Below are positions 1-14,337 of a stretch of 64,000 bases of DNA, one piece after another (position 1 is the stretch's first letter; each line of letters starts with the position of its first letter). The position numbers were made by a program, and so were the translations under genes. Below the pieces are notes generated by a model, which was given only the letters and a program-made list of their open reading frames with translations, did not search any database and was not told the DNA's origin. The DNA lies in assembly GCA_025359845.1 (NCBI GenBank), contig JANYDT010000052.1:8325-72324 (forward strand), given 5' to 3'. Origin of the DNA: Acidimicrobiia bacterium (lineage in GTDB: Bacteria; Actinomycetota; Acidimicrobiia; Acidimicrobiales; JANYDT01).

Positions 1-555
1 CGAGCCCAGCAACGGCCGCCTATCCAACACTTTCAACATCGGCAGGCTCCGGCTCGCATACAACGTGATTCATTTGTGGGACGAGGCGCCGGGTCCCCTC
101 CTGGCCGACCTCGGCCTGAGCCCCCTCGCCGTCCTGCCCACCGCACTACCCAAGAAACCGCCATCGATCGGGTCGCGGCCGTGCTCGATCGCATCAACAC
201 CGTCGCGGAACCACAGCGGCGCCGACAGTTGGCCCTCGACGCCGTTAGCTTCGGCACAATCATCCTGGACCGCCCTACACTAATAGAACTCCTCAGGAGG
301 TACCCTGCCATGCCGCTCTACGCCGAAGAAATGCCGCTCTAACAAGAAGGCCTCGAACGCGGCCTCGAACAAGGCCTCGAACGGGGGGAGGCACGAGCGT
401 TGACGCGAATCCTTCAGCACCGATTCCCACTCCTGGCCGCCGCCGAAACCGAGGACATCGCTACACTCGATCGAACCCGTCTCGATCGACTCGCTGAACT
501 CGCCTTGGAGTTCGCCACGCTAGAAGACCTGCGCGAATGGCTCGGCCGGGCTTGA
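1..555 (+). pseudogene. Rpn-family recombination-promoting nuclease / putative transposase, 3' remnant with DUF4351-type C-terminus, disrupted
   Basis: Frame 2 reads FNIGRLRLAYNVIHLWDEAPGPLLADLGLSPLAVLP to ~150. Frame 1 then continues TQETAIDRVAAVLDRI...LLRRYPAMPLYAEEMPL. An in-frame TAA lies at 340-342. The same frame then reads QEGLERGLEQGLERGEARALTRILQHRFPLL...LEDLREWLGRA, with stop at 553-555. The EGLE(R/Q)G repeat plus this tail matches the DUF4351 pattern as I remember it. The 5' end lies outside the window. Confidence 0.5.
349..384 (+). repeat. 12-nt x3 tandem repeat ggcctcgaacNN (encodes GLER-GLEQ-GLER)
   Basis: Direct reading: ggcctcgaacgc / ggcctcgaacaa / ggcctcgaacgg. Confidence 0.9.
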
Positions 556-666: not shown

Positions 667-3600
667 GTGATCCCGTCCCTCGTCGCGTTGGAGTTGCGCA
701 GGGCGATCGTCGAGTACCTGTCGACCACCTTTGCCATCGGCGACGAGCGTACCCGTGAAGCACTCGCCGCCTTCCTGGCCGATCCGGCCGAGGGAATCTT
801 CCGGGGACCGTACGTCCACGTCCGGTTGCCGTACCGCTCGGTCGAGGCGGGTTGGCGCTCGCCGCTCGGATGGACGCCGCCCGGTTTCAAGCCATTCATG
901 CACCAGGCTCGGGCGTGGGAACGGCTGTCGTCGAACGGTCGGACCCCGCAACCCACAATCGTGCGCACCGGTACCGGATCGGGCAAGACCGAGGCTTTCC
1001 TGTTTCCGATTCTCGATCACTGCCGACGAGCACAGCAGCGCGGTGAAAGAGGGATCAAGGCGCTGCTGCTGTACCCGATGAACGCGCTGGCCACCGACCA
1101 AGCCGGACGGCTCGCGCAGCTCATTGCCACACACCCGGAGTTGGCCGGATTGACCGCCGGCATCTTCATCGGCAATGACCGATCAGGAGGCGGTACGGCT
1201 GGTCGCAATCTCGGGATGGATGCCACACATCTGATCGACAGTCAAGACCAATTGCGGGCCTTTCCACCCGACATTCTCCTCACCAATTACAAGATGCTCG
1301 ATTTCCTCCTGTTTCGCGGTCGCGACTCCGGGCTATGGGTCGAGAACACGCCGTCCACCCTTCAGTATGTCGTGCTCGACGAATTGCATACCTACGACGG
1401 TGCGCAGGGCACCGATGTAGCCATGCTGCTGCGTCGGCTAGGTGATCGATTGTCGATGTCGACGCCCGACCGTCCGCTCGGCACCGCGACGCCGGTCGAA
1501 CATCGGCCACCCTCGGGGCCGGAGCCGAGGCCACCGAAGCGCTGGCCGAGTTCGCCGCCCGTCTTTTCGGCTCACCGGTCGACCCTGATGCCATTGTCGG
1601 TAACGACTTCTTGAGCGCAGCCGAGGCGTGCGGCGCGACCAACTTCGACATGCCCATCCCCGACATCGAAGATCTCCCTGCGGGCCCCGCGCTCGACCTT
1701 GACGAGTTGGCTGCGTGCTTCCTCGGGCGGCCCCTGCTGGGGAACTCGACGCCAAGCGCGACGGGACCGACAGGCACATCGGCGGTGACAATCGTCGACA
1801 GCCGTGTCGAGCTGGGCGAGGCGCTGCGGTCCCATCACCTCACCCGAGCGATCGTCGAGTCGGCCGGCGATCGCCCACGGGCTTGGCACGACGTGATCGA
1901 ACGCATCGTCGGACGCGTTCCCAACTGGGGACGGGTGCACCGCCGCGCCCCCGAACGCGTCAGCGATGCGGTTGCAAAATACCTGGCCCTGCTGTCGGTG
2001 GCCCGGGTCGGCAGCGACCGCGGCCCCGTGCCGCTGTTCAGCATCCAAGTGCAGTTGTGGGTCCGAGAAGTGTCGCGACTGCTGCGAGCGGGCACGAGCG
2101 AACCGGCATTCCGCTGGAACGATCGCGCCAGCGCCGCGCACGACGCCGGTGTCGGCCCAGATGGGTCCGCCGACGGCCATGGACGGACCGATCTCGACAG
2201 CGCGAACTCCCCGCCCGACATGATCTGTCTCCCGGCCGTCTACTGCCGCCATTGCGGCCGAACGGGTTGGGCCAGCGTCATCTCGGAGTCGGACGGTTCG
2301 CTGGTGGTCGCACCGGCGGCGGCATACAAAGCGTCGATCGAGCGGTCGCCCCGATTCCGGGTGCTGCTGCGGGCCGAACCAGCCGAAGTCGACGCCCAAT
2401 GGTTCGACCCGCGCGACCGCCGCACCACCACCGTGGTGCCGAGGTCATCGCCGCACGCGAGTTGGGTGTGCGTGCTCGTGACCCCCGACAACGACGACGC
2501 CAAACGCGACGAATGCCCGTCGTGCGGCGCGGGCGACGCCATCCGATTTCTCGGTTCGCAAGTGGCGTCGCTGGCCTCCGTCACGCTCGGCCAGATGTTC
2601 GGCTCGGCGTATGTCGACGTGGCCGAGCGAAAGCTGCTGGCGTTCACCGACTCGGTGCAGGACGCATCTCATCGGGCGTCGTTCTTCGGCGCCCGTACCT
2701 ACCGCTTCAACCTCCAAGCCTTGCTGTCGAGGGTGATCCAGGATCACGACGGGATGATCGATCTCGGGTCGCTCGGTTCGCTGCTCCTGACCACCGCCCG
2801 CGACCGCGGCGCCGACGTGGTCTTCGGGCTCGTGCCCCCCGATCTGGTGGCCCATCCGACGGTGAAGACTCTGTGGACAGAACGTCCATCGGAACCCGGC
2901 GCGGCGCTGTTGTCACGAAGACTGTCGTTCGAGGCGGCCCTGGAGTTCGGCTTGCTGAGTCGAGTCGGGCGGACGTTGGAACTCACCCGTTCCGCGGTGG
3001 CCGCGGTCCGGATCGACCATCTCGACGAAGTCGTCGCCCTGGTGCGGGAAGGGATCGAGACCGCCACCGGCCGATCGCGCTTCGACGGCGCCACCGGAGA
3101 TGGGGCGGCCCGCGACGCAATGAGCCCCGATGAACGCGTCGGCGAATACGTCCGCGGCGTCGTCGAACGGTTGCGGACCCGGGGCGCGATCTTTGATCCG
3201 CTGCTCGACCCGTACGTGGCCAACGACGGCCGGACGTGGTTTCTGTGGGGCGGCCGCAGCGAGGGCGCTCCCGTGTTCACCGACCGCCAGTCCCGTCCGA
3301 CATTCGTCACCGATGCCGCCCGCCCGCCGAGCTTTGACACACTGGCCCGCACCGCGGCCCGAACCTGGTGGGTCGACTGGGCCATGCGGTCACTGGGTAT
3401 CGAAGCGGGCGAAGCTCCCGAGGTGAACCGGAAGACGTTCGCACTGCTTGATTCGCTCGATGTGATCACGAGCCGCCGGTCGAAGTCGGGCGACATCGTG
3501 TACGGGCTCCTACCCGCCCACGTTCTGGTGGAAGACGTGCCCGACTTCGAGCCGGACGAGGAGCCCGCCGATCAACCGTCGGGGCACGACCACAACGCGT

Positions 3601-6600
3601 CGGATCACCTCGCGCCAGTTCAAGTCGCTCCGGCCCCGAGCCTCATGCGCTGCCGACTTTGCTCTCATAGGTTCGCCGCGCCGACGGGAACGGTGGCCGA
3701 ATGGGTCGGCGCGCTGTGCCCGAAATTCCGGTGCACGGGCACGCTGGCGATAGCGCCCTTCGAAGGATCATCGTTCTACCGCACGCTGTACCGATCGGGT
3801 TCGACGCGTCGCGTCGTTGCCGCTGAGCACACCAGTCAGCTCAGTCGCAGCGAACGCGAGCACGTCGAGCAGCGATTCAAGTCCGGTGGACGACCCGACG
3901 ACCCGAATGTGTTGACGTGCACGCCCACACTCGAAATGGGCATCGACATCGGTGACCTGAGCGCCGTGATGCTCACGTCGATCCCCCGCGGTGGTGCGGC
4001 TTCGTACGTACAACGGGTGGGCCGGGCCGGGCGTAAGACCGGCAACGCGTTGGTCACGGCGTTTGCCGGGAGCGACCCGACGAGTCTCTATTTCTTGGCC
4101 GATCCCCTGCGGATGATCGCCGGCGAGATCCGTCCACCGGCCTGCCATCTCGATTCGGTCGAGATCCTGAGCCGCCAGTATCTGGCGTTCCTGCTCGATC
4201 GGACGGCGAAGGGCTCGATCGAAGCGCCGTCGGCCCCGAATCAGATCGCCGACGTTTTCGCCAAGAAGGTGCCGACTCAGGCAACCCAGACATCGGGAAC
4301 GCTGACGTGGCTCGGCGCCGTCGTCACCGCCGGTGAACTCGAACCGATGCACGCGGCCCAGTTCCTCGGCCTCCTCAGCTCGGAGATCAGCCCGTCCACC
4401 GGTGATGCGCTTCGCGAGTTCGCCGCGACCGGGCTCGCCGGAGCGGTGAAACTGGCCGGCAGCCGCTGGCAAGAACAGGTTACCGACCTCGAACTCCGCG
4501 TCCGACGCATCAACGAGCGGATCAAGGAACTCACCTCCAAGACGACACTCGACCCCGACGAAGTAGAGGATTTGCACGGGTTGCGGGGCGGGCGGTGCTC
4601 GGTCGCCGGATCACGGAGCTGCGTTCGGAGTACACCTATTCCGCACTGGAGCGGCTCGGTCTGCTGCCCAACTACACGCTCACCGACGAAACCATCCGCC
4701 TCGACGCAGTGTTGTGGGGCATCGACGGCGACAGTGAGAAGTTCCGCAACGAGAGCTCGTTCGATCGCCCTGCGGAGTTCGCGCTCAGCGAGTTCGCGCC
4801 GGGCAACACGTACTACGCCAAAGGCCACCGCTACCTGATCGACGCCCTCGACATCGGCACGCCGACCGAACCCATCCTGGAGTCGTGGAGACTGTGCCCC
4901 GACTGCGGCTACGGTGCCCTCGACGTGGCGCAGACCACGTGGGTCCGCTGTCCACGGTGCGCCCGCGTTGGCATCGCCGATCTCGGCGCCCGCCATCAGC
5001 TGTTGCGCGTGCGGCGGGTCATGTGCATCGACAGCGAGGAGCAGGCCCGCGTGTTCGACGAGACCGACGAGCGCGAACGCGAGCGGTTCGCGCGGGTTAC
5101 GACCGTCGACGTCGACCCAGCGAAGGTCGAGAAGCCGTTCAAGCATCTTCATGTCACGTTCGGGTCCGAATTGGCCCGCGAGACGCGGAACCGCTTTCTC
5201 AACTTCGGCTCAGTCGAGCGCCCGGGCGCAACGATCAAGGTTTCGGGGTTGGAGGTACCGCACCACGGTTCGCGACGTGTCGCCATTGCGGCATCGTGAA
5301 AGGGGCGAGGCCCACCGCGCCCGGTCGCGACACCCGCCATCTCGGTTGGTGCAAGACGCGCTCGGCGGTGAAAGCGCAGTGGGAGGAGTTGGCCCTGGTG
5401 CACGAGTTGACCACCGACGCCATCCGCATGCTCGTTCCTGTGGCCGTGGTCGAAGCCCACGAACGGCTGGCCACGTTTCAGGCCATCCTGCGCCTGGGGC
5501 TGCGGGTGAGCTTCGGCGGCGACCCCGACCACCTTCGCGTGGTCACGGCCGACATGCCCGCACGGGCGGGTAGCACGACGACCCTCGAAGGTGTGCGCCG
5601 CCGGTTTGTGGTGCTCTAGACACCATTCCCGGCGGCACCGGCTATCTCGACCGCTTGGCCGATCCCGACCGGCTGCGCGACATCCTTCTCGGCGCCCGGG
5701 CGCTGATCGCCGCATGCCCGTGCAAAGACGAAGGGCTGCTGGCGTGTCACCGATGCCTGCTCGGGGTCACCGACCGGCCCAGCGTGTCGCTCGTGACCCG
5801 GCCTCTCGCCCTCGAACAGCTCGACGAACTCTTGTCGGATTGGGCGACCGAACCCGTGGCGACGGTGGCCGATCTGCAGATCGACGAACTCGAGGAATCC
5901 GAACTCGAGCGACTGTTTCGGGCCGCGCTCGTGGCCTGGGACGCGAAGCGCAACGACGTGCTCATCACGGCCGCTCCGGGCGGCCGCCACTACGGGTTCG
6001 AGGTCCGCATCACGACCACCCTTCCGAGCGGCGGAGCCGACGCCCCCGCCCGCGAGGAGGTCGTGCGGTGGCGTATCCGCGAACAGCAGGACGTGGTCAC
6101 GGGCGGCATGTCCTGTCGACCCGACTTTCTGTTCACCCGACTGGACAGCAACCCACAGGAGATCGCCGTATTCGTCGACGGTGAGCAGTTCCATGCGTCG
6201 CCCGAGCATGATCGCCTCGCCGACGACGCAAACAAGCGCAACACGTTGCGCTCCGGCGGAAGGCTCGTCTGGAGCCTCACATGGACCGACATCCAAGCGT
6301 TCCTCAACGCGCAGACCTCCGACGTCGACCGAACGGTGCGCCGGAGCGGGTTGCTCTCGCCGGAGGTGGTCCAGCGGACCCAGCACCTCCAGCAATCGTT
6401 TTCAGGAACGCTGACCGGAGCGGTCGCCGGCATGAACGCCATGGAGCAATTGGTGCGATTTCTGAGGGCGCCGGTAACCGGCGATTGGGAGCAGCTCGCC
6501 TGTTCCGCCGGGGCCGCTGCGGCGAAAGACAACGTCGTACTCGTCGATGACTCCGGCTTGGTCGACACGCTGCGCGGCTTTCTCGACGGCCACCCGGTCA

Positions 6601-7249
6601 CGACGCCGCCGGTCGCGCCCACCTCCGCGACGGGAGCGGTCGGTGTCGTCGGCGGCCTGGCCGTGATACTCGATCTGCGCAGCGGCAAAGGCCCCAACGA
6701 GCAGCGCTGGACGGCACTGGCGCTGACGCCCGACGGTGTTCAGCTCGGCCCGCCCGATGCATCCGATAGATGGAAGGAGTGGCTGCTCTGGTCGAACCTC
6801 GCCCAGTTCCTACAGTCCGAGGACCGCCAATTCGTCATGACCACGACATCATTGGCGAAGGACTTCGATCTCACCAATCTTTACCTCGTCAATCCCGCCA
6901 CAGCTCAGCCCATGTCGAGCTCGTCTCCCGGCTCCGCCATCGACTCAGCCGAACTCGCAGACGTGAAGCCCTCGGCGGAAGCGCTGCTGCAAGCGACACG
7001 GGCGTTGGGCGTCGTGCCTGCGCCCATTCCTGGCTTCGAACCGGACTCACCTGGCGGATGGCCGATCGAGCTGGGTTGGCCGTCTGCGCGTGTCGGGGTC
7101 GTGTCCACCACGACCCGGAACGCGACACGTGGCTCGCCGCACACGGGTGGAGTGTCAAGATGGTCGACCTGTGGACACCGGCCGAACTCTTTATGGCCCT
7201 GAGTCCGCAGCCCGGCGCCTCCCACGGTCACGCCACGGCGCAGGACTGA
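667..7249 (+). pseudogene. Giant SF2 DEAD/DEAH-box helicase - DUF1998 (MrfA-type Zn-binding) - Vsr/DUF559-like nuclease fusion, ~2,195 aa if five net -1 frame breaks are repaired
   Basis: Six collinear ORF segments. (1) 667-~1497, frame 1: TGTGSGKTEAF, LLLYPMNALATDQ, VLDELH. (2) ~1497-~4590, frame 0: TSATLG, CRHCG/CPSCG Zn-ribbon insert, LLAFTDSVQDASHRASFF, TPTLEMGIDIGDL, YVQRVGRAGR. (3) ~4590-~5255, frame 2: LLPNYTLTDE, EFAPGNTYYAKGHRY, CPDCG..CPRC. (4) ~5255-5619, frame 1: CRHCG. (5) 5619-~7105, frame 0: DTIPGGTGYLDRL, ACPCKDEGLLACHRCLL, RPDFLF..VFVDGEQFH. (6) ~7105-7249, frame 2. The protein sequence reads through sensibly at each junction if one nt is added. Confidence 0.8.
5895..6300 (+). 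other. Vsr/DUF559-like PD-(D/E)xK-type nuclease module inside the giant helicase
   Basis: ESELERLFRAALVAW...WRIREQQDVV..RPDFLFTRLDSNPQEIAVFVDGEQFHASPEHDRLADDANKRNTLRSGGRLVWSLTWTDI. The PDF...VDGxxxH...D..K/R...L...G pattern is the one I associate with DUF559/Vsr-like domains. Confidence 0.55.
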
Positions 7250-7252
7250 ACG

Positions 7253-9366
7253 ATGGCCAGCATGAGCATGGCCCGCGATTTCTTGACGTCCTTCGGGCGG
7301 CGATCGTCAACTGAGCAAAGCCAGATCCGGTCGATCATCGACAAGTTCCAACGCGACCCCACCAATGCTTCGCTCAACCTCGAAACCCATCATCGCCAAC
7401 GCGACCCACGGATGCGCACCGTTCGGGTAAGTCAGTTCTGGCGCGCGGTGGTGATCGCCCCGGAACGCGGCAATAGCGACTACATCCTCGTCGACGTGCT
7501 CCCCCACGACGCTGCCGGCGATTGGCTCGAGCGCCACGAACTCACCGTCAACCTGATGACCGGCGGCCTGGAGTTGTGCGACATCCCGACCGTCGAACGC
7601 ACGGCCGCCGAGTTCAACGCTCCGAGCGCGCCGGCGGCACCTGACATGTTCCACGGGGCCAAGGATCGCGACTTCACGCGGCTCGGCGTGGATGAGCGCG
7701 TCGTCCCGCGGCTGCGCAGGGTGGGCAGTGCCGAAGAACTCGACACGCTCATGATGCTGCTGCCGCAGTTGCAATCCGACGCCGTCGGCTATCTGGCCAG
7801 TGGCTGCGGCGTCGACGAGGCGTACGGCTTCATTCTCGGCGCCATCGATGCCACCGCACCGACCACCGACATCGACCCCACCGACATCGTCGCGGCAGTG
7901 GCCCGTCCCGCGTCGTCGGCGTTCTTCCACACCGTCGATGGCGAAGATGAACTCAACGATATCCTGGCGAAGCCGCTCGACCTGTGGCGGGTGTTCCTGC
8001 ATCCGACGCAAAGGCGACTGGCACAAGCCAAGACCAAGGGCGCAACGCGTGTGCTCGGTGGTCCCGGTACCGGCAAAACCGTCGTTGCCCTGCACCGAGC
8101 CCAATGGCTGGCCAAGCAAAATCCGAAAGCCCGCCTGCTTCTCACCACGTTTACGACCACAATGGCGGCCGAATTGTCCGCTTTACTGCGCAACCTCGCC
8201 GGCCCCGAAATCGCCGATCGTGTCGAGGTCCTCGGAATCGACAAGCTCGCGTCCCGGCTGCTGCGCGAGACCGACTCGGGCCGAGGCACCAACCCGCCGA
8301 AGGACCAGGAGCTGGATCGCATGTTTGCTGACGCGTGCGCCGCAATCGGATTCGAACTCCCAGCCAGTCTCGTCCGCCACGAGTGGGAGCAGATCGTGCT
8401 CGCCGGCGGCATCGAATCACGGGCCGACTATTTCAACGCGCCACGACCGGGCCGTGGTGTGCGGCTGAACCGGGCCCAGCGGGCCCAGGTGTGGGAGGTG
8501 ATCGAGCTGGTCACCGGAAAACTCGGCCAGCAGCGAACCTTTCTCCAGCTCGCCAGCAACGCCGCCGAACTCGCCCAGCGGGAAAACCGGGCTCGGTACG
8601 ACCACGTCATCGTCGACGAGGCGCAGGATCTCCATGCGTCGCATTGGCGACTGTTGCGGGCGCTCGTGGCCGAGGGCCCCGATGATCTGTTCATCGTCGG
8701 CGACGCCACACAGCGAATCTATGACCGGCGCGTCGTGCTCTCCCGTTACGGCATCAGCGTCCGAGGGCGGCGTTCGACGACACTCAAGCTCAACTACCGT
8801 ACGACTGGCGAGATCTGCGTTGGTCACTGCGGCTCATCGGTGACGACCCGGTCGACGATCTCGATGACGGTACCGTCGATGGCACGGGCTACCGATCACT
8901 CCGGCGGGGAGAGGCCCCGAAAGTCAGCGGACACCCGTCGGCGGGGGTCGAACTCGACGCACTTGTGGCGGAACTCAAGACGCTGATCGAGGGAGGGCTC
9001 GGCGCCGACGAGATCTTGGTGGCGGCGCGCACTAGGAGCCTGGTAGAACTCATCCAGCGCCATCTCAGCGAATCGGGGCTGCCGGCCGTTTTCCTGGCGG
9101 ACGACCGGTCAGGTGAACACGACGCCATCCACGTCGCCACCCTGCATCGGCTCAAAGGCCTCGAGTATCGCCATGTGTGCCTGGTCGACATCTCCCAGGG
9201 CGTGGTCCCGCTCGAGAACGCGGTGACGGCCGAGGCCAACGACGCGCTCCAGCACCGCGCCGACCTCGGACGCGAACGGGCCCTCCTCTTTGTCGGTGCG
9301 ACGCGGGCCCGTGATTCGCTCAGCGTCAGTTACCACGGCCGGCCCAGCCCGTTCCTCCCAGCCTGA
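7253..9366 (+). pseudogene. UvrD/PcrA-like SF1 helicase (~704 aa if one -1 break near 8817 is repaired) with an unassigned ~250-aa N-terminal region
   Basis: Motifs before the break: VLGGPGTGKT (Walker A), VIVDEAQDL, FIVGDATQRIY, LNYRTTGEI. After the break: RWSLRLIGDDPVDDL...VATLHRLKGLEYRHV, LLFVGATRARDSL. The ATG is 3 nt after the stop of the giant helicase. Confidence 0.8.
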
Positions 9367-9412
9367 CCACTTCCCGCGCCGCGAGAACACCTTCCGACCG
9401 GCGCCGCCTACG

Positions 9413-10516
9413 ATGCAAACGATGCGGCCCGAAGAGGTGTTGAGGCTGAGAATGGCGAGCCTGCTGCTCGGCCGCCGCGAGGCCCGCACTCCTCGCCAAG
9501 TCGTCACGTGGTTCGGCGCTATGCAGGCCCAGGACTTGGCGAGCGGCGAGTGGTCTTTCGGTCTGCGCATTCCCGGGGCCACCCAGGGCGCCGTCGATCA
9601 GGCGACTCATGATCGCGAGATCTTGCGAACATGGCCGATGCGCGGCACCGTCCACTTCGTCGCGCCCGAAGACGCCAAGTGGCTGCTAGCGCTGACCGGG
9701 GTGCGCGCCCTCGCCGGGGCGGCTGGTCGTCGGGCCCACCTCGGCCTCGATGAGGCCACGGTGAACAAGGCCGCCGAAGTGCTGGCCGGCGCACTCAGCG
9801 GGGGGAAGCGCCTCAGCCGAGCCGAGTGCGTCGACCTTCTGATCGAGGCCGGCGTCCACACCGCTAAAGAACACGGCTATCACCTCCTCTGGTACACGTC
9901 GCAGATCGGGGTGACCTGCATCGGTCCACAGCAAGGGAAGGAGCAGACCTTCGTGCTGCTCGACGAGTGGGTTCCTAATCCTCGGACGCTCAGCCGGGAG
10001 GAGGCGCTGGCGGAGTTGGCTGTGCGGTATTTCCAGTCCCACGGCCCAACGACCCGCCAAGACTTCGCGGGTTGGACCGGGCTGGCGATGGCCGACGTCA
10101 GGTTGGGGATCGACGGGGCCGCGACCGCTCTGCAGACGATCGACGTCGAGGGCTCGCCGTATGTTATGGCGGCCGCGTTGCGTGACGAGGCGTCACGGAT
10201 TCTCGCCGAAGCGGAAGACACCGAGGTCTGGATCCTGCCCGGATTCGACGAGTATCTGCTCGGGTTCAAAGACCGGTCGCTGATGGTGAGCCGCGACCAC
10301 ATGAAGACGATCATCCCCGGCAGCAACGGAGTGTTCATGCCCACGATCGTGTCCGGCGGTCGCGTCATCGGCACATGGAAACGGGAAGTCAAACGCACCC
10401 GGGTCGATGTGCGACCGCTACCCTTCGCCCCGTTCACGCCCGCGCAGCAGTCAGGATTCAGCGACGCGGCCGAAACGTACGGTCGCTATCTCGGACTGGA
10501 CGCGAACTGCGTATGA
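9413..10516 (+). CDS. AlkZ-like (HTH_42 / DUF1006 winged-helix) DNA glycosylase
   Basis: MQTMRPEEVLRLRMASLLL...PRQVVTWFGAMQAQDLASGEWSFGLR...ILRTWPMRGTVHFVAPEDAKWLL. The QAQ triplet is at 9524-9532. The listed ORF starts at 9290, but the in-frame ATG at 9413 (or 9422) avoids overlap with the upstream gene. Confidence 0.75.
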   Translation: MQTMRPEEVLRLRMASLLLGRREARTPRQVVTWFGAMQAQDLASGEWSFGLRIPGATQGAVDQATHDREILRTWPMRGTVHFVAPEDAKWLLALTGVRALAGAAGRRAHLGLDEATVNKAAEVLAGALSGGKRLSRAECVDLLIEAGVHTAKEHGYHLLWYTSQIGVTCIGPQQGKEQTFVLLDEWVPNPRTLSREEALAELAVRYFQSHGPTTRQDFAGWTGLAMADVRLGIDGAATALQTIDVEGSPYVMAAALRDEASRILAEAEDTEVWILPGFDEYLLGFKDRSLMVSRDHMKTIIPGSNGVFMPTIVSGGRVIGTWKREVKRTRVDVRPLPFAPFTPAQQSGFSDAAETYGRYLGLDANCV

Positions 10517-10637
10517 GCACTTCGGCGCGCCGATCGTGGTCGGGGTCGTCTGTTTTCTATCTTGTACAAATGGCGGCGCCACCTCCGGCGTGCGCTCATC
10601 GACAACCCGCGTTACGGCGCAAAAACAAGGAGTTCTC

Positions 10638-11393
10638 ATGAGTTTGGTCGGACGCGTGGCCCTCATCACCGGATCGGCGCGCGGCATCGGCGCCGCCATC
10701 GCCGACCGACTAGCGGCCGACGGGGCCAAGGTGGCCGTGGCCGACCTCAGCGAGGCCGAGGCTCGAACCACCGCGGTGAACATCGGCGGTCGTCGGGGCG
10801 TCGCCTCGATCGGACTGAGTGTCGATGTGTCGTCGAGCGCCAGTGTCGGCGCCGCGGTGACCCGCGTGGCGCAGGAACTCGGACCCATCGACATTCTCGT
10901 CAACAACGCCGGTATCGATGTGATCAAGCCCTTCATCGACTCGACGGAGGAGGAGTGGGACGCGATCATCGCCGTCAACTTGAAGGGGCCGTTCATCTGT
11001 ACCCGGGCCGTGCTCGACTCGATGATCGAACGCAAGCAGGGCCGCATCATCAACATTGCGTCGGACGCGGGTCGAGTCGGATCCTCCGGGGAGGCGGTGT
11101 ACTCGGCCACCAAGGGGGGCGTAATCGCGTTCACCAAGACCATTGCGCGCGAAGTTGCCCGGTTCGGGATCACGGTCAACTGCGCCTGCCCCGGTCCGAC
11201 CGAAACCGCCTTGCTCGGCCAACTGGCGGCCTACAGCCAGAAACTGTACGACGGCCTGGCCCGTGCGATCCCCCTCGGACGGACCGGGCAGCCCGAAGAC
11301 ATCGCTCACGCCATCGCCTTCCTCGCCAGTGACGGCGCCGGCTACATCACCGGCCAAACCCTCTCGGTGAGCGGCGGACTTACCATGGCCTGA
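10638..11393 (+). CDS. SDR family oxidoreductase (FabG-like 3-oxoacyl reductase type)
   Basis: ALITGSARGIGAAIA, NNAG, YSATKGG. An aaggag RBS lies 6 nt upstream of the ATG at 10638. Confidence 0.9.
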   Translation: MSLVGRVALITGSARGIGAAIADRLAADGAKVAVADLSEAEARTTAVNIGGRRGVASIGLSVDVSSSASVGAAVTRVAQELGPIDILVNNAGIDVIKPFIDSTEEEWDAIIAVNLKGPFICTRAVLDSMIERKQGRIINIASDAGRVGSSGEAVYSATKGGVIAFTKTIAREVARFGITVNCACPGPTETALLGQLAAYSQKLYDGLARAIPLGRTGQPEDIAHAIAFLASDGAGYITGQTLSVSGGLTMA

Positions 11394-11510
11394 CTTCGGT
11401 GACCGCGCTTACCGAAGCGCGCCGGCGCGCCCCCTCGGCCGGCCGACTCGTCGGCGGGCGCCTCAATCCGCGATACTGGTGCGACACCATTTCGAACGAG
11501 GAGAACAGCT

Positions 11511-12803
11511 ATGTGGGATTTTGCGACCGACCCCGAATTTCAAACGGAACTCGACTGGATCGACGCCTTCGTGCGAGAGGAGGTCGAGCCTCTCGACTAC
11601 GTGTTCGAGACCCCTTATGACCTCTCCGACAAGGCCATGGTGGCAGCCACCAAGCCACTGATGCAAAGGGTTAAGGATCGGGGCCTCTGGGCTTGTCACC
11701 TCGGCCCTGATCTCGGCGGCCAAGGATTCGGACAGTTGAAGCTCGCTCTGATGAACGAGCTCTTGGGCCGTTCGCACTTCGCGCCCCGGGTGTTCGGCTG
11801 CCAGGCGCCCGACTCGGGCAACGGCGAAATTCTCGCGCACTACGGCACCGACGAGCAGAAGGCGAAGTGGCTTCAGCCCCTACTCAACGGCGAGATTGTC
11901 TCATGTTTCTCGATGACCGAGCCCCAGGGCGGCGCTGACCCGACGCAATTCCGCACCACCGCAATCAAAGATGGCGATGAATGGGTCATCAACGGATACA
12001 AGTGGTTTTCCTCAAATGCGCGGTACGCAACGTTCATGATCGTCCAAGTCGTCACCGACCCCAACGTGAGTGCATATCACGGCCAGTCGATGTTCGTGGT
12101 GCCCGCAAACACGCCCGGCGTGAAGATTCTGCGCAACGTGGCCGTGGGCGAGCCGGACGCTCAAGGCAGCCACGCCCACATTCACTACGACAATGTTCGG
12201 GTGCCGGCCGATCACCTACTGGGTGGGCCTGGTCAGGGTTTCGCGATCGCCCAGACCCGACTTGGCGGCGGCCGCATCCATCACGCCATGCGCACCGTGG
12301 CGCAAGTCCGCAAGGCCTTCGACATGATGTGCGAGCGGGCGCTTTCTCGCACCACGAAGGGCGAGCTGCTCGGGGCCAAGCAGATGACGCAGGAGAAGGT
12401 GGCCGATTCGTGGGTCCAAATTGAGATGTTCCGACTGCTCGTGTTGCGTACAGCATGGAAGATCGACAAAGAGAAGGACTACATGAAAGTGCGCAAAGAT
12501 ATTGCCGCCGTCAAAGTGGCAATGCCCGACGTTTATCACGATGTGGTTCGCCGGGCCATGCAGCTTCATGGTTCTATGGGTGTCTCCAATGATCTACCTT
12601 TTGCCGGAATGATGCTCGGGGCTATGAGCCTGGGACTGGCTGACGGTCCTTCTGAAGTACACAAGATAACCATTGCCCGTCAGGTGCTGCGGGAGTACAA
12701 GGCCGGCGACGAGATCTTTCCGAGTGGGCATATTCCGACCCTGCGCGACCGAGCCCTCGTGAAGCTGGCCGAGTTCATCGACCACGACATGGCCGAGGTG
12801 TAA
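11511..12803 (+). CDS. Acyl-CoA dehydrogenase family protein
   Basis: 430-aa ORF with a gaggag RBS. ACAD-type motifs present: CFSMTEPQGGADP, WVINGYKWFSSN, GGGRIHHAMR. Confidence 0.9.
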   Translation: MWDFATDPEFQTELDWIDAFVREEVEPLDYVFETPYDLSDKAMVAATKPLMQRVKDRGLWACHLGPDLGGQGFGQLKLALMNELLGRSHFAPRVFGCQAPDSGNGEILAHYGTDEQKAKWLQPLLNGEIVSCFSMTEPQGGADPTQFRTTAIKDGDEWVINGYKWFSSNARYATFMIVQVVTDPNVSAYHGQSMFVVPANTPGVKILRNVAVGEPDAQGSHAHIHYDNVRVPADHLLGGPGQGFAIAQTRLGGGRIHHAMRTVAQVRKAFDMMCERALSRTTKGELLGAKQMTQEKVADSWVQIEMFRLLVLRTAWKIDKEKDYMKVRKDIAAVKVAMPDVYHDVVRRAMQLHGSMGVSNDLPFAGMMLGAMSLGLADGPSEVHKITIARQVLREYKAGDEIFPSGHIPTLRDRALVKLAEFIDHDMAEV

Positions 12804-12814
12804 GACCGTTCGAA

Positions 12815-12850
12815 GGGGTGGGTGAGCCGGCTTCTCACTCACCCCGTTCT
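12815..12850 (+). terminator. Stem-loop after the ACAD gene (12-bp stem, one G-U pair, 7-nt loop)
   Basis: The stem is ggggtgggtgag / ccggctt / ctcactcacccc, followed by gttct, 12 nt after the stop. The U-tract is weak. Confidence 0.45.
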
Positions 12851-12973
12851 AGCGGTACGCTCCCGATTGGTCTCCCGCCTGACGCCGAGCGATACTCCAG
12901 TCAATCACTTTGTCCAGTTTCCTGCATCGTAAAGTCAGCTGCCCAATCAACGCCCATCTGGGCAGGAGTTCAC

Positions 12974-13837
12974 GTGAAGCCCGCGCCATTTCGCTACCAC
13001 GCACCCGAGTCACTTGAAAACGCCGTCGCTCTGTTGGCCGAACACGGCGACGAAGCCAAACCCCTCGCCGGCGGTCAAAGCCTCGTGCCCATGCTCTCGC
13101 TACGACTGGCCAGCTTCGAACACCTCGTCGACCTGAATGGGGTGGCGTCGTTGTCGAGCATTGCCCGCACCAACGGTTCCCTTCGGATCGGCGCGATGGT
13201 GCGCCAAGCCACGGCCGAACATTCGCCAGAAGTAGCCGGCGCCGTTCCCCTGCTAAGCCGAGCGTTGCCGCTCATCGGCCACTTTCAAATCCGTAACCGG
13301 GGCACGATTGGCGGATCGATTGCGCACGGCGACCCTGCATCGGAACTTCCGGCCGTCGCGCTCGCGCTCAGGGCGACCGTCGAAGCCGAGGGTCCGTCGG
13401 GCACTCGACGCATCGCGTCAGAGGATTTCTTCGTGTCGACGTGGGAGACCGCGCTACGAGACGGCGAAATCCTTGCGGCGGTCGAGTTTCCGGTGTGGAG
13501 CGGCACGTGCGGATTCGCCATCGAAGAAGTCGCTCGCCGGCACGGCGACTTCGCCCTCGTGGGGGTGGCCTGTGGTGTGGAGGTCAACGGCCCGTCGGTG
13601 GTCCGCGCCGGCATTGCGATGTTCGGAGTGGGGCCGACGGCAATACGTGTGGCCGCCGCCGAGCACGCGCTGATAGCCGGCGGAACTGGCGCGGATCTCA
13701 CCGAAATCGGCCGGATTGCGGCCAACGATCTCACCCCGCCCGACGATGTGCACGCGTCGAGCGCCTACCGAAAGCAGGTTGCCGCTGTGGTTGTCCGTCG
13801 AGCTCTTTCCCGTGCGATCGCGGAGGCCACCAAGTGA
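12974..13837 (+). CDS. Xanthine dehydrogenase/CoxM-family FAD-binding subunit
   Basis: VKPAPFRYHAPESLENAVALL..AKPLAGGQSLVPML...RNRGTIGGSIAHGDPASELP. I chose the GTG at 12974 over the listed upstream start. Confidence 0.85.
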   Translation: MKPAPFRYHAPESLENAVALLAEHGDEAKPLAGGQSLVPMLSLRLASFEHLVDLNGVASLSSIARTNGSLRIGAMVRQATAEHSPEVAGAVPLLSRALPLIGHFQIRNRGTIGGSIAHGDPASELPAVALALRATVEAEGPSGTRRIASEDFFVSTWETALRDGEILAAVEFPVWSGTCGFAIEEVARRHGDFALVGVACGVEVNGPSVVRAGIAMFGVGPTAIRVAAAEHALIAGGTGADLTEIGRIAANDLTPPDDVHASSAYRKQVAAVVVRRALSRAIAEATK

Positions 13838-14337
13838 GCGATGTCACCACGTTGAGTCTGCGGGTGAACGGCCGCGACCAGCGCGTCACCGTCGAGGCCC
13901 GCAAGCTGCTCTCGGATGTACTGCGTGAAGACCTGCACCTCACCGGTACGCACATCGGTTGCGAGCACGGGGCATGCGGGGCATGCACCATTCTCGTCGA
14001 CGGCGCCGCGGTGCGGTCGTGCCTGATGTTCGGTGTCCAGGCCCAAGGGTGCGAGATCACGACCGTCGAGGGTGTCACACCTGGAGATGGGGGCCTTAAC
14101 GCGGTTCAACAGGCCATGCAGGACTGCCACGGGTTGCAGTGCGGGTTCTGCACGCCAGGCATAGTGGTGTCGCTCACGGCGTTCTTGCGCGACAACGCCA
14201 GTCCGTCCGATGACGAGATCCGCGAAGCATTGTCAGGCAACCTCTGTCGCTGCACGGGGTATCAAGGCATCGTCAACGCCGCCCGTCAAGCGGCCGGAAC
14301 CCTCCAGACCGCCGCCCATCAAGGGAGTCACATATGA
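13834..14337 (+). CDS. (2Fe-2S)-binding small subunit (CoxS-like)
   Basis: GCEHGACGACTILVDG and CGFCTPG..CRCTGY. GTGA overlap with the upstream stop. Confidence 0.9.
   Translation: MSDVTTLSLRVNGRDQRVTVEARKLLSDVLREDLHLTGTHIGCEHGACGACTILVDGAAVRSCLMFGVQAQGCEITTVEGVTPGDGGLNAVQQAMQDCHGLQCGFCTPGIVVSLTAFLRDNASPSDDEIREALSGNLCRCTGYQGIVNAARQAAGTLQTAAHQGSHI

What the first reader, a model, noticed from the sequence alone, without database searches (positions are those of the whole stretch)
667..9366. Two-helicase locus: ~2,195-aa SF2 helicase / DUF1998 / Vsr-like nuclease fusion plus a UvrD-like SF1 helicase
**Seen in the sequence.**
- One collinear reading unit spans 667-7249. It carries DExH helicase motifs I-VI, two ~350-400-aa insertions around the RecA2 lobe, and four Cys clusters (CRHCG/CPSCG, CPDCG/CPRC, CRHCG, ACPC..CHRC).
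- It also carries the LLPNYTLTDE / PGGTGYL signature of DUF1998-type modules and a PDFLF..VDGEQFH Vsr/DUF559-like nuclease module.
- About 300 aa of unassigned sequence follow, ending GWPIELGWPSARVGVV-HHDPERDTWLAAHGWSV.
- Three nt after its stop, a UvrD-like helicase gene begins. An intact AlkZ-like glycosylase follows 46 nt later on the same strand.

**Established knowledge.**
- Very large DUF1998 helicases are the hallmark of Druantia (DruE).
- Helicase plus DUF1998 defines DISARM DrmA/DrmB.
- Helicase-Vsr fusions have been reported as single-gene defences (Hhe).
- SF1 helicases with N-terminal effector domains occur in Nhi-like systems.

**Inference.** None of the usual partners (DruA-D/H/M, methyltransferase, PLD nuclease) is in the window. 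The pairing of DruE-sized helicase-nuclease with a UvrD-like helicase could therefore be a distinct anti-mobile-element architecture.
Basis: partly seen in the sequence, partly recalled or inferred. Interest (0 to 1): 0.8.

Follow-up and report, generated by a model that had tools for sequence, protein, structure and literature searches.

The report
Decayed half of ARMADA phage defence
The two broken helicase genes are the armC and armD genes of ARMADA type II, a four-gene anti-phage system already described and tested in E. coli; this copy appears to have lost its two partner genes and is decaying into pseudogenes, so it is ordinary.

Summary
Window 667-7249 is one collinear giant SF2 helicase gene, 2196 aa once five frame breaks are repaired. 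Window 7253-9366 is a UvrD-like gene, 704 aa after one repair.

The interpretation as a distinct architecture is not supported.
- The repaired proteins align end to end with the validated E. coli O157 ARMADA type II proteins ArmC (705 bits, against 116 bits for DruE) and ArmD (35% identity, E 3e-134).
- The predicted ArmD N-terminus has a RelE-like fold.
- In 76 of 80 orthologous loci armD directly follows armC. In 57 an ArmB-type methyltransferase lies upstream, and in 49 an ArmA SNF2 helicase as well.
- A sister lineage about 95% identical in the flank carries armA and the start of armB at the syntenic site. The window's lineage shows no trace of either in 9 kb upstream.
- The frameshifts recur in separate assemblies and differ between strains. 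A relative 94-95% identical keeps both reading frames open. dN/dS is 0.14-0.18.

The locus is therefore a recently inactivated armCD remnant in an uncultured Acidimicrobiia genome. The AlkZ-like gene is only a neighbour. This is a degraded member of a known kind, of low interest.

The parts
667..7249 (+). armC pseudogene: ARMADA type II YprA-family helicase-nuclease, 2196 aa after repair of five frame breaks
   Evidence: Collinear tblastn to intact orthologues. Repair. Aligns over aa 1-1879 with E. coli ArmC ECs_5263 at 705 bits, against 116 bits for DruE. Falls in the ArmC clade.
901..1514 (+). RecA1 / DEAD domain, with Walker A K107 at 985-987 and DELH at 1378-1389
   Evidence: Pfam PF00270, 1.2e-17. 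Coordinates mapped.
1498..1499 (+). Frameshift 1: a 1-bp deletion inside a GCA (Ala) codon
   Evidence: Frame 1 to frame 3 against the orthologue motif PVATSATLG. Shared by L081 and L082. Absent in L087.
1563..3785 (+). About 740 aa inserted between RecA1 and RecA2, holding the first two CxxC pairs. The published family analysis describes this region as BrxA-like + Zn beta-barrel + MarR-like.
   Evidence: Sequence. Domain names come from the literature only and were not tested here.
3813..4037 (+). RecA2 / Helicase_C
   Evidence: Pfam PF00271, 3.7e-12.
4587..4588 (+). Frameshift 2: a 4-bp deletion (GCGA) relative to L084
   Evidence: Shared by L082.
5257..5258 (+). Frameshift 3: a 1-bp deletion
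   Evidence: Shared by L082.
5479..5759 (+). MZB / DUF1998 four-Cys zinc module, spanning frameshift 4
   Evidence: Pfam PF09369, 41.1 bits against a cut-off of 24.2, on the repaired protein.
5618..5619 (+). Frameshift 4: a 1-bp deletion, polymorphic. The 99.97% identical contig L082 has a T here and reads through.
5895..6314 (+). Vsr/MTES_1575-like PD-(D/E)xK nuclease module (PDF at 6120-6128, DGEQFH at 6177-6194)
   Evidence: D162, F163, D180, G181, H185, D196, R200 and D217 are invariant in 16 homologues. PF18741 hits this segment in 6 of 16 homologues, best 4.9e-8 and below the gathering score. The window's own sequence is not hit. Foldseek was not significant.
6315..7249 (+). Conserved C-terminal ~310 aa. 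The published family analysis describes it as an inactive EEP-like domain plus a second, inactive Vsr-like domain.
   Evidence: Aligns full length with homologues. Domain names come from the literature. The model here has low confidence in this part.
7102..7103 (+). Frameshift 5: a 1-bp deletion
   Evidence: Absent in L083 and L084.
7253..9366 (+). armD pseudogene: RelE-like N-terminal domain + GajB/UvrD-like SF1 helicase, 704 aa after one repair
   Evidence: 35% identity over the full length to E. coli ArmD ECs_5264, E 3e-134. Pfam. Intact 704-aa orthologues at 97% identity.
7253..7582 (+). RelE/YoeB-like toxin-fold domain of ArmD
   Evidence: AlphaFold2 model with pLDDT 83. The top 50 Foldseek PDB matches are almost all RelE/YoeB/YafQ/HigB/ParE toxins, probability 0.99-1.0 for the best dozen, TM(target) 0.67-0.74. 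R58 and R64 are invariant.
8003..9366 (+). UvrD-like helicase core of ArmD (Walker A K275 at 8075-8077, DEAQD at 8615-8629)
   Evidence: Pfam PF00580, PF13245, PF13361. Coordinates.
8814..8815 (+). Frameshift in armD: a 1-bp deletion
   Evidence: Absent in L083 and L084.

Best explanation
The locus is the distal half (armC-armD) of an ARMADA type II anti-phage system, in an uncultured Acidimicrobiia bacterium.

**The intact system, from the literature.** A SNF2/BrxHII-like helicase (ArmA) and a PglX-like adenine methyltransferase (ArmB) work with ArmC and ArmD. ArmC is a YprA-family DExH translocase with a DUF1998 canopy and a C-terminal Vsr-type nuclease. ArmD is a RelE-like domain fused to a GajB/UvrD-like helicase. 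Together they block phage replication directly, without killing the cell. All four genes are required in E. coli.

**This copy.** armA and armB are absent from the 9 kb upstream, while a sister lineage still carries them at the syntenic site. armC carries five frameshifts and armD one, all small deletions. The copy is therefore non-functional: a recently inactivated remnant.

**Shown here.**
- Orthology of both genes to validated ArmC and ArmD.
- The DUF1998 and RelE-like domains.
- The conserved operon in relatives.
- The lesions and their polymorphism between strains.
- Intact close orthologues.
- The absence of armAB nearby.

**Inferred.**
- The loss of armAB preceded and caused the decay of armCD.
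- The nuclease is of the Vsr type.
- The ancestral system worked like the E. coli one.
For: **Orthology.**
- The repaired ArmC aligns over aa 1-1879 with E. coli O157 ArmC (705 bits), against 116 bits for the adjacent DruE.
- ArmD aligns over its full length at E 3e-134.
- Walker residues sit at positions equivalent to the mutated K110/D234 of ArmC and K266/D454 of ArmD in the paper.
- A distance tree puts the window inside the ArmC clade, far from DruE.

**Domains.**
- MZB/DUF1998 passes the Pfam cut-off.
- The ArmD N-terminus folds as RelE/YoeB.

**Operon in relatives.**
- armD directly follows armC in 76 of 80 loci. ArmB lies upstream in 57 and ArmA+ArmB in 49.
- The upstream proteins are SNF2 and type IIG/DrmMI-like methyltransferases, homologous to E. 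coli ArmA and ArmB.

**Published description.** It matches the literature on gene order, the RelE-GajB fusion and the Vsr C-terminus.

**The sister lineage.** L249 is about 95% identical in the flank. It has armA and the start of armB right after the DUF6855 gene.

**The window's lineage.** No armA or armB signal in 9 kb upstream or in the 64-kb window.

**Reality and age of the lesions.**
- They recur in separate assemblies and vary between strains.
- A third lineage has a CAA>TAA stop at codon 95.
- L084 keeps the armC frame open over the 1926 codons it covers and has an intact armD. L083 also has an intact armD.
- dN/dS is 0.18 for armC and 0.14 for armD, and all catalytic motifs are unchanged. 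Inactivation is therefore recent.
Against: - Only 9 kb upstream of armC could be read. In a Nocardia clade armAB sit 8.7-25 kb upstream of armCD, separated by other defence genes. A distal armAB in this genome is therefore not excluded.
- The genome is a metagenome-assembled contig. The assemblies that share the frameshifts may come from related samples.
- L249 ends inside armB, so its linkage to armCD is inferred from synteny. Its armA is itself frameshifted.
- The Vsr fold could not be confirmed for the window's own sequence.
- No experiment exists for any actinobacterial ARMADA.
Confidence: 0.8

Rival explanations
1. ArmC+ArmD form a self-sufficient two-helicase defence module that works without ArmA or ArmB. 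The window's copy is simply one recently broken allele of that module.
For: - dN/dS of 0.14-0.18 shows purifying selection on both genes in this species group.
- A contig 94-95% identical keeps both reading frames open.
- Four loci show no armAB within 8.5-10 kb. These are two Planctomycetota, Granulicoccus and Nocardia sp. NBC_01388. None of them appeared in the ArmB scan.
Against: - All four genes are essential in two independent E. coli studies.
- Five of the nine apparent 'CD-only' loci turned out to have armAB 8.7-25 kb upstream on the same contig.
- A sister lineage has armAB at the syntenic site.
- At least two lineages have inactivated armC independently, as expected once it is useless.
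- The purifying selection may date from before the loss of armAB.
Confidence: 0.1
2. The frame breaks are sequencing or assembly artefacts and both genes are intact and functional in the organism.
For: - The source is a metagenome-assembled contig.
- One difference between near-identical contigs lies in a C6/C7 homopolymer.
- An orthologue 94-95% identical keeps both frames open.
Against: - Five of the six lesions are not in homopolymers, and one is a 4-bp deletion.
- The lesions at 1498, 4588 and 5258 recur in contigs from two further sequencing runs.
- The flanking genes in the same contig are intact, with dN close to 0.
- An adjacent DUF4351 gene is also broken, and a relative carries a clean nonsense substitution in armC.
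Confidence: 0.06
3. It is a Druantia type III system (DruE), with druH lying off the left edge of the window.
For: PADLOC's best model for the N-terminal and RecA2 fragments is DruE3. The protein is of DruE size and has DUF1998.
Against: - PADLOC-DB 2023 predates ARMADA, and the match covers only the helicase core.
- Head-to-head, E. coli ArmC scores 705 bits and DruE 116 bits.
- No DruH-like gene lies in 9 kb upstream.
- There are no PLD domains. The downstream RelE-UvrD gene is the ARMADA II signature.
Confidence: 0.02
4. It is a DNA-repair operon: helicase-nuclease + UvrD-like helicase + AlkZ-like glycosylase acting together on damaged DNA.
For: All three genes lie on the same strand with short spacing, and the arrangement is kept in the close relatives L083 and L084. 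YprA/MrfA relatives act in repair.
Against: - No AlkZ-like gene occurs in any of the 80 ArmC loci.
- The helicase belongs to the defence branch of the family, with the ArmA/ArmB context.
- The AlkZ-like gene stays intact while the two helicases decay.
Confidence: 0.02

Closest known systems
ARMADA type II (ArmA-ArmB-ArmC-ArmD), E. coli O157:H7 NCTC 12900 / EDL933 z5899-z5902 / Sakai ECs_5261-5264
   Same: - ArmC and ArmD are full-length homologues with the same lengths (ArmD is 704 aa in both).
- They share domain order, adjacency and catalytic motifs.
- ArmD has the RelE-like N-terminus.
- ArmC has DUF1998 and a C-terminal PD-(D/E)xK module.
- Orthologous loci in Actinomycetota have the same four-gene order.
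   Different: - Only 30-35% identity to the E. coli proteins.
- armA and armB are missing from the neighbourhood.
- Both remaining genes are pseudogenes.
- The host is an uncultured Acidimicrobiia bacterium.
- The locus is not on a satellite-like island with Druantia and Zorya.
Druantia type III DruE (with DruH)
   Same: A giant YprA-family DExH helicase with DUF1998 and the same large insertion between the RecA lobes. It is the best PADLOC 2023 model and the nearest solved structures (9tu7 series).
   Different: - Similarity is confined to the helicase core (116 bits).
- DruE ends in PLD-like domains, not Vsr.
- The partner is DruH, not a RelE-UvrD helicase.
- No methyltransferase is involved.
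DISARM class 1 (DrmD, DrmMI, DrmA, DrmB, DrmC)
   Same: In the full ARMADA operon, the SNF2 helicase, the N6-adenine methyltransferase and the YprA helicase + DUF1998 correspond to DrmD, DrmMI and DrmA+DrmB.
   Different: - Here the helicase and DUF1998 are fused.
- The nuclease is a fused Vsr-type module rather than a separate PLD protein (DrmC).
- ARMADA II adds ArmD.
Gabija GajB
   Same: The ArmD helicase core matches the GajB profiles.
   Different: There is no GajA OLD-family nuclease partner. ArmD carries a RelE-like N-terminal domain that GajB lacks.
Hhe / helicase-Vsr single-gene defences
   Same: A helicase fused to a Vsr/MTES_1575-type nuclease.
   Different: As recalled, Hhe uses an SF1 helicase and acts alone; this was not tested here. 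ArmC is an SF2 YprA helicase within a multi-gene system.

Membership tests
ARMADA type II | ArmC is a YprA-family DExH helicase with the DUF1998/MZB zinc module | tested here: met
   Pfam DEAD, Helicase_C and MZB (41 bits against a cut-off of 24) on the repaired protein.
ARMADA type II | ArmC groups with validated ArmC rather than with DruE or DrmA | tested here: met
   705 bits over aa 1-1879 against E. coli ArmC, 116 bits against DruE. The NJ tree agrees, but it is a distance tree without bootstrap.
ARMADA type II | C-terminal predicted active Vsr-type nuclease on ArmC, often followed by inactive EEP and Vsr domains | tested here: inconclusive
   For: an invariant PDF...DGxxFH...DDxxKR motif is present in the window, and PF18741 hits 6 of 16 homologues at that segment, below the gathering score. 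Against: no Pfam hit for the window's own sequence; Foldseek best E 0.06, to PD-(D/E)xK enzymes; the profile search of PDB sequences and hhalign against E. coli Vsr were negative.
ARMADA type II | ArmD is a GajB/UvrD-like SF1 helicase encoded directly after armC | tested here: met
   3-nt spacer. Pfam UvrD families. Full-length match to E. coli ArmD. Adjacency in 76 of 80 loci.
ARMADA type II | ArmD has an N-terminal RelE-like domain | tested here: met
   Model with pLDDT 83. Foldseek top hits are almost all RelE/YoeB/YafQ/HigB/ParE toxins.
ARMADA type II | ArmA (BrxHII/SNF2 helicase) and ArmB (PglX-like methyltransferase) encoded upstream in the order A-B-C-D | tested here: not met
   No hit in the 64-kb window or in 8.3 kb to its left. 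They are present in 49-57 of 80 orthologous loci and at the syntenic site of sister lineage L249. A location more than 9 kb away cannot be excluded.
ARMADA type II | Intact genes conferring non-abortive phage resistance | not testable with these tools
   The reading frames are broken, 5+1 lesions. Activity would need experiments.
Druantia type III | DruH encoded next to DruE, and DruE ending in PLD-like nuclease domains | tested here: not met
   The upstream genes are a DUF4351 pseudogene, SocA_Panacea and DUF222. No PLD domain was found in Pfam.
DISARM | Separate DrmA and DrmB genes plus the PLD nuclease DrmC | tested here: not met
   Helicase and DUF1998 are fused in one reading unit, and there is no PLD gene.
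Gabija | GajA (OLD-family ATPase-nuclease) adjacent to GajB | tested here: not met
   The neighbours are armC upstream and an AlkZ-like gene downstream.

The most novel reading that the evidence does not exclude
ArmC-ArmD may be a separable effector module. It could be maintained and remain active without a linked ArmA-ArmB methylation/SNF2 module, either alone or supplied in trans across many kilobases. The window would then be one eroding example of such a reduced two-helicase system.
Probability: 0.1. Interest if true: 0.5.

Novelty: new member of a known kind. Interest (0 to 1): 0.15.

Why it matters
It matters little beyond correct annotation.

- **Tool coverage.** PADLOC-DB 2023 and NCBIfam 2026 do not name ArmC or ArmD. 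PADLOC labels the fragments DruE3 and GajB, which invites the false idea of a new Druantia-like or Gabija-like hybrid.
- **Natural loss of the system.** The partner genes are gone and the two remaining genes pick up different inactivating mutations in sibling lineages. This agrees with the experimental finding that all four genes are needed.
- **Possible follow-up.** In several actinobacterial lineages other defence genes sit between armB and armC. That may deserve a separate look.

Tried and rejected
- **Window's genome.** An exact-match search for it in genome contigs found nothing.
- **Source organism.** I first guessed Mycobacterium from the DUF222 gene and the G+C content. A housekeeping protein instead places it in uncultured Acidimicrobiia.
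- **Vsr fold.** Four attempts gave nothing significant: Foldseek of the 536-aa C-terminal model, a profile search against PDB sequences, hhalign against E. coli Vsr, and Pfam on the window's own segment.
- **First alignment for the ArmD N-terminus.** I rebuilt it from a protein search.
- **'ArmCD-only' classification.** I first classed nine loci as a stand-alone architecture. I withdrew this for five Nocardia loci once armAB were found 8.7-25 kb upstream on the same contigs.
- **Extending the left flank.** Cluster members then gave L249 and L251.
- **First ArmC tree.** It timed out, so a faster distance tree was used.
- **NCBIfam.** It has no ARMADA models. The validated E. coli proteins are also unnamed.
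- **Rejected readings.** Programmed frameshifting, Druantia III, Gabija, DISARM and an AlkZ repair operon were considered and rejected, as set out under the rival explanations.

Full report
**1.

ORF listing shows the region broken into overlapping pieces on the + strand. tblastn with intact 2084-2146-aa orthologues from other genomes shows that these pieces form one collinear gene across 667-7249, read in frames 1, 3, 2, 1, 3, 2. A second gene spans 7253-9366 with one frame change.

Alignment to an intact orthologue 94-95% identical (L084) pins the lesions down:
- a 1-bp deletion after nt 1498
- a 4-bp deletion at 4588
- 1-bp deletions at 5258, 5619, 7103 and 8815

Restoring them gives proteins of 2196 and 704 aa. 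Pfam then finds DEAD, Helicase_C and MZB/DUF1998 above threshold in the first protein, and the UvrD families in the second. An intact AlkZ-like gene follows.

**2. The lesions are real and recent.**

- The lesions at 1498, 4588 and 5258 recur in contigs assembled from other sequencing runs (L081 at 100% identity, L082 at 99.97%).
- L082 reads through at 5619 but has an extra C at 2835, so the decay is polymorphic.
- A relative about 92% identical (L087) lacks the 1498 lesion but has a CAA>TAA stop at codon 95.
- L084 has an open armC frame of at least 1926 aa and an intact 704-aa armD. L083 also has an intact armD.
- Five of the six lesions are outside homopolymers.
- The flanking housekeeping genes are intact.
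- Between the window and the intact orthologues, dN/dS is 0.18 for armC and 0.14 for armD. Walker A, DExH, the nuclease motif and the invariant RelE-domain arginines are all unchanged. The genes were under purifying selection until recently.

**3. What the genes are.**

PADLOC-DB (2023) gives DruE3 for the helicase core and GajB-type models for the second gene. The context in relatives points elsewhere.

Among those 80 loci:
- The UvrD-like gene directly follows the giant helicase in 76. In the other four the contig ends within 100 nt of the helicase.
- A ~1500-1650-aa type IIG/DrmMI-like methyltransferase lies upstream in 57.
- That methyltransferase together with a ~930-1120-aa SNF2/DrmD-like helicase lies upstream in 49.

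This four-gene operon is ARMADA type II. It was defined by Bell et al. (bioRxiv 10.1101/2025.09.15.676423):
- ArmA is a BrxHII-like SNF2 helicase.
- ArmB is a PglX-like methyltransferase.
- ArmC is a YprA-like helicase with a C-terminal Vsr nuclease, often followed by inactive EEP and Vsr domains.

The system gives direct, non-abortive protection in E. coli, and all four genes are required. A second study in EHEC EDL933 agrees (PMC13463889).

I retrieved the E. coli O157 Sakai genes (ECs_5259-5264) and compared them directly:
- The repaired window helicase aligns over aa 1-1879 with ArmC (29.6% identity, 705 bits) but scores only 116 bits against the neighbouring DruE.
- The repaired second protein aligns end to end with ArmD (35% identity, E 3e-134).
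- The upstream proteins of the actinobacterial loci match ArmA and ArmB.

A distance tree puts the window and all 76 full-length relatives in one clade with E. coli ArmC, on a long branch away from DruE.

An AlphaFold2 model of the window's ArmD N-terminus (pLDDT 83) matches almost only RelE/YoeB/YafQ/HigB/ParE toxins in the PDB. This confirms the signature fusion.

The Vsr assignment is supported only indirectly. The PDF...DGxxFH...DDxxKR motif is invariant in 16 homologues, and 6 of them hit PF18741 there, below the gathering score. Fold and profile searches with the whole C-terminal region were not significant.

**4. Where the partner genes are.**

The source is an uncultured Acidimicrobiia genome: a housekeeping protein is at most 75% identical to Acidimicrobiia MAGs. 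The source contig is 74.6 kb.

No ArmA or ArmB homology exists in the 64-kb window. None exists in the 8.3 kb to its left either, recovered from an identical contig (L081). That stretch encodes cydBA, an SDR, a luciferase-like protein, DUF6855, DUF222, a SocA/Panacea antitoxin and a broken DUF4351 gene.

A sister lineage (L249) is about 95% identical across cydA-SDR-luciferase-DUF6855. Immediately after DUF6855 it carries armA, itself with two frameshifts, and the start of armB, where the contig ends.

The simplest reading has three steps. A complete ARMADA II system sat at this site. The window's lineage lost armAB. The now useless armCD are eroding, independently in at least two lineages.

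One caveat applies. Nine loci first looked 'ArmCD-only'. In five of them, all in a Nocardia clade, armAB turned out to lie 8.7-25 kb upstream on the same contig. The intervening DNA carries other defence genes such as DarT with a macrodomain protein. A distal armAB in this genome therefore cannot be excluded.

**5. Other points.**

- The AlkZ-like gene is not part of the system. No AlkZ homologue occurs in any of the 80 loci.
- NCBIfam has no model that names ArmC or ArmD, not even for the validated E. coli proteins. This explains why the locus looks unassigned.

**6. Verdict.**

The proposed novelty is not there. The locus is a degraded, partial member of a system named in 2025 and validated in 2025-2026.

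The only reading with some novelty is that ArmCD can persist or act without linked ArmAB. The evidence does not favour it, and I rate it at about 0.1.

Noticed in passing
window 1-555 (+), extending left of the window; intact orthologue at L087:207-1079: The 3' part of a DUF4351-containing gene lies directly upstream of armC. From memory it resembles the Rpn/PD-(D/E)xK 'transposase' type. It is also broken in the window, by a frame change and by TAA where the 290-aa orthologue in L087 has Tyr.
   Followed up: partly
L033/L183, L046/L184, L045/L187, L063/L204, L027/L209 (Nocardia); L003:5148-8335 and L007:4701-6971 (Acidimicrobiales): ARMADA II operons can be split between armB and armC by 1-25 kb of other defence genes. 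Nocardia has DarT + macrodomain, an HTH-TPR protein and an SF1 helicase there. Acidimicrobiales have a GmrSD-like DUF262 + AlbA_2 gene, and L003 has McrBC just downstream. The armB|armC junction may be a hotspot for cargo insertion. The published description stresses a strict gene order.
   Followed up: partly
L033:17251-19455, L035:9385-11613, L061:11162-13408, L027:17064-19307(-): Several Nocardia loci carry a second, diverged armD-like gene (RelE-like N-terminus + UvrD core) next to the first.
   Followed up: no
window 667-9366 compared with 9452-14337: Synonymous divergence between the window and L083/L084 is 0.17-0.20 for armC and armD. It is only 0.035-0.09 for the adjacent AlkZ-like, SDR, acyl-CoA dehydrogenase and CO-dehydrogenase-type genes. 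This suggests allele exchange or a different history for the defence genes.
   Followed up: no
L249 (reverse strand) about 6747-9552: In the sister lineage that retains armA and armB, armA is itself read in three frames, which implies two frameshifts. The whole system may be decaying across this Acidimicrobiia population.
   Followed up: partly
L081:5433-7887 (1.4-3.6 kb left of the window): A DUF222 gene, a SocA/Panacea-domain antitoxin gene and a following 74-aa ORF that could be its toxin sit between the housekeeping cyd cluster and armC. This fits a small variable, defence-type island.
   Followed up: no
window 5569 and 4281: There are in-frame length differences of 57 bp and 15 bp between the window and the intact orthologue L084 inside armC. 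The 57-bp segment in L084 looks like a local tandem duplication.
   Followed up: no
window 9290-10516: The start of the AlkZ-like gene is ambiguous: TTG at 9290 (408 aa), ATG at 9413 (367 aa), or the 354-aa call used in the related contigs (start 9452). The Pfam match begins at residue 72 of the longest form.
   Followed up: no
L008:17700-19130: A Ser/Thr kinase-TPR protein that matches the PADLOC PD-T4-6 and mad6 models is encoded directly after armD in Luedemannella.
   Followed up: no
PDB entries 9tu7-9tuc (2108-aa chain) and 9wae series (1970-aa chain): The nearest solved structures to ArmC by sequence are recent giant 'DEAD/DEAH box helicase' entries, at 142 and 72 bits. I presume they are DruE proteins. 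No ArmC structure appears to be deposited.
   Followed up: no
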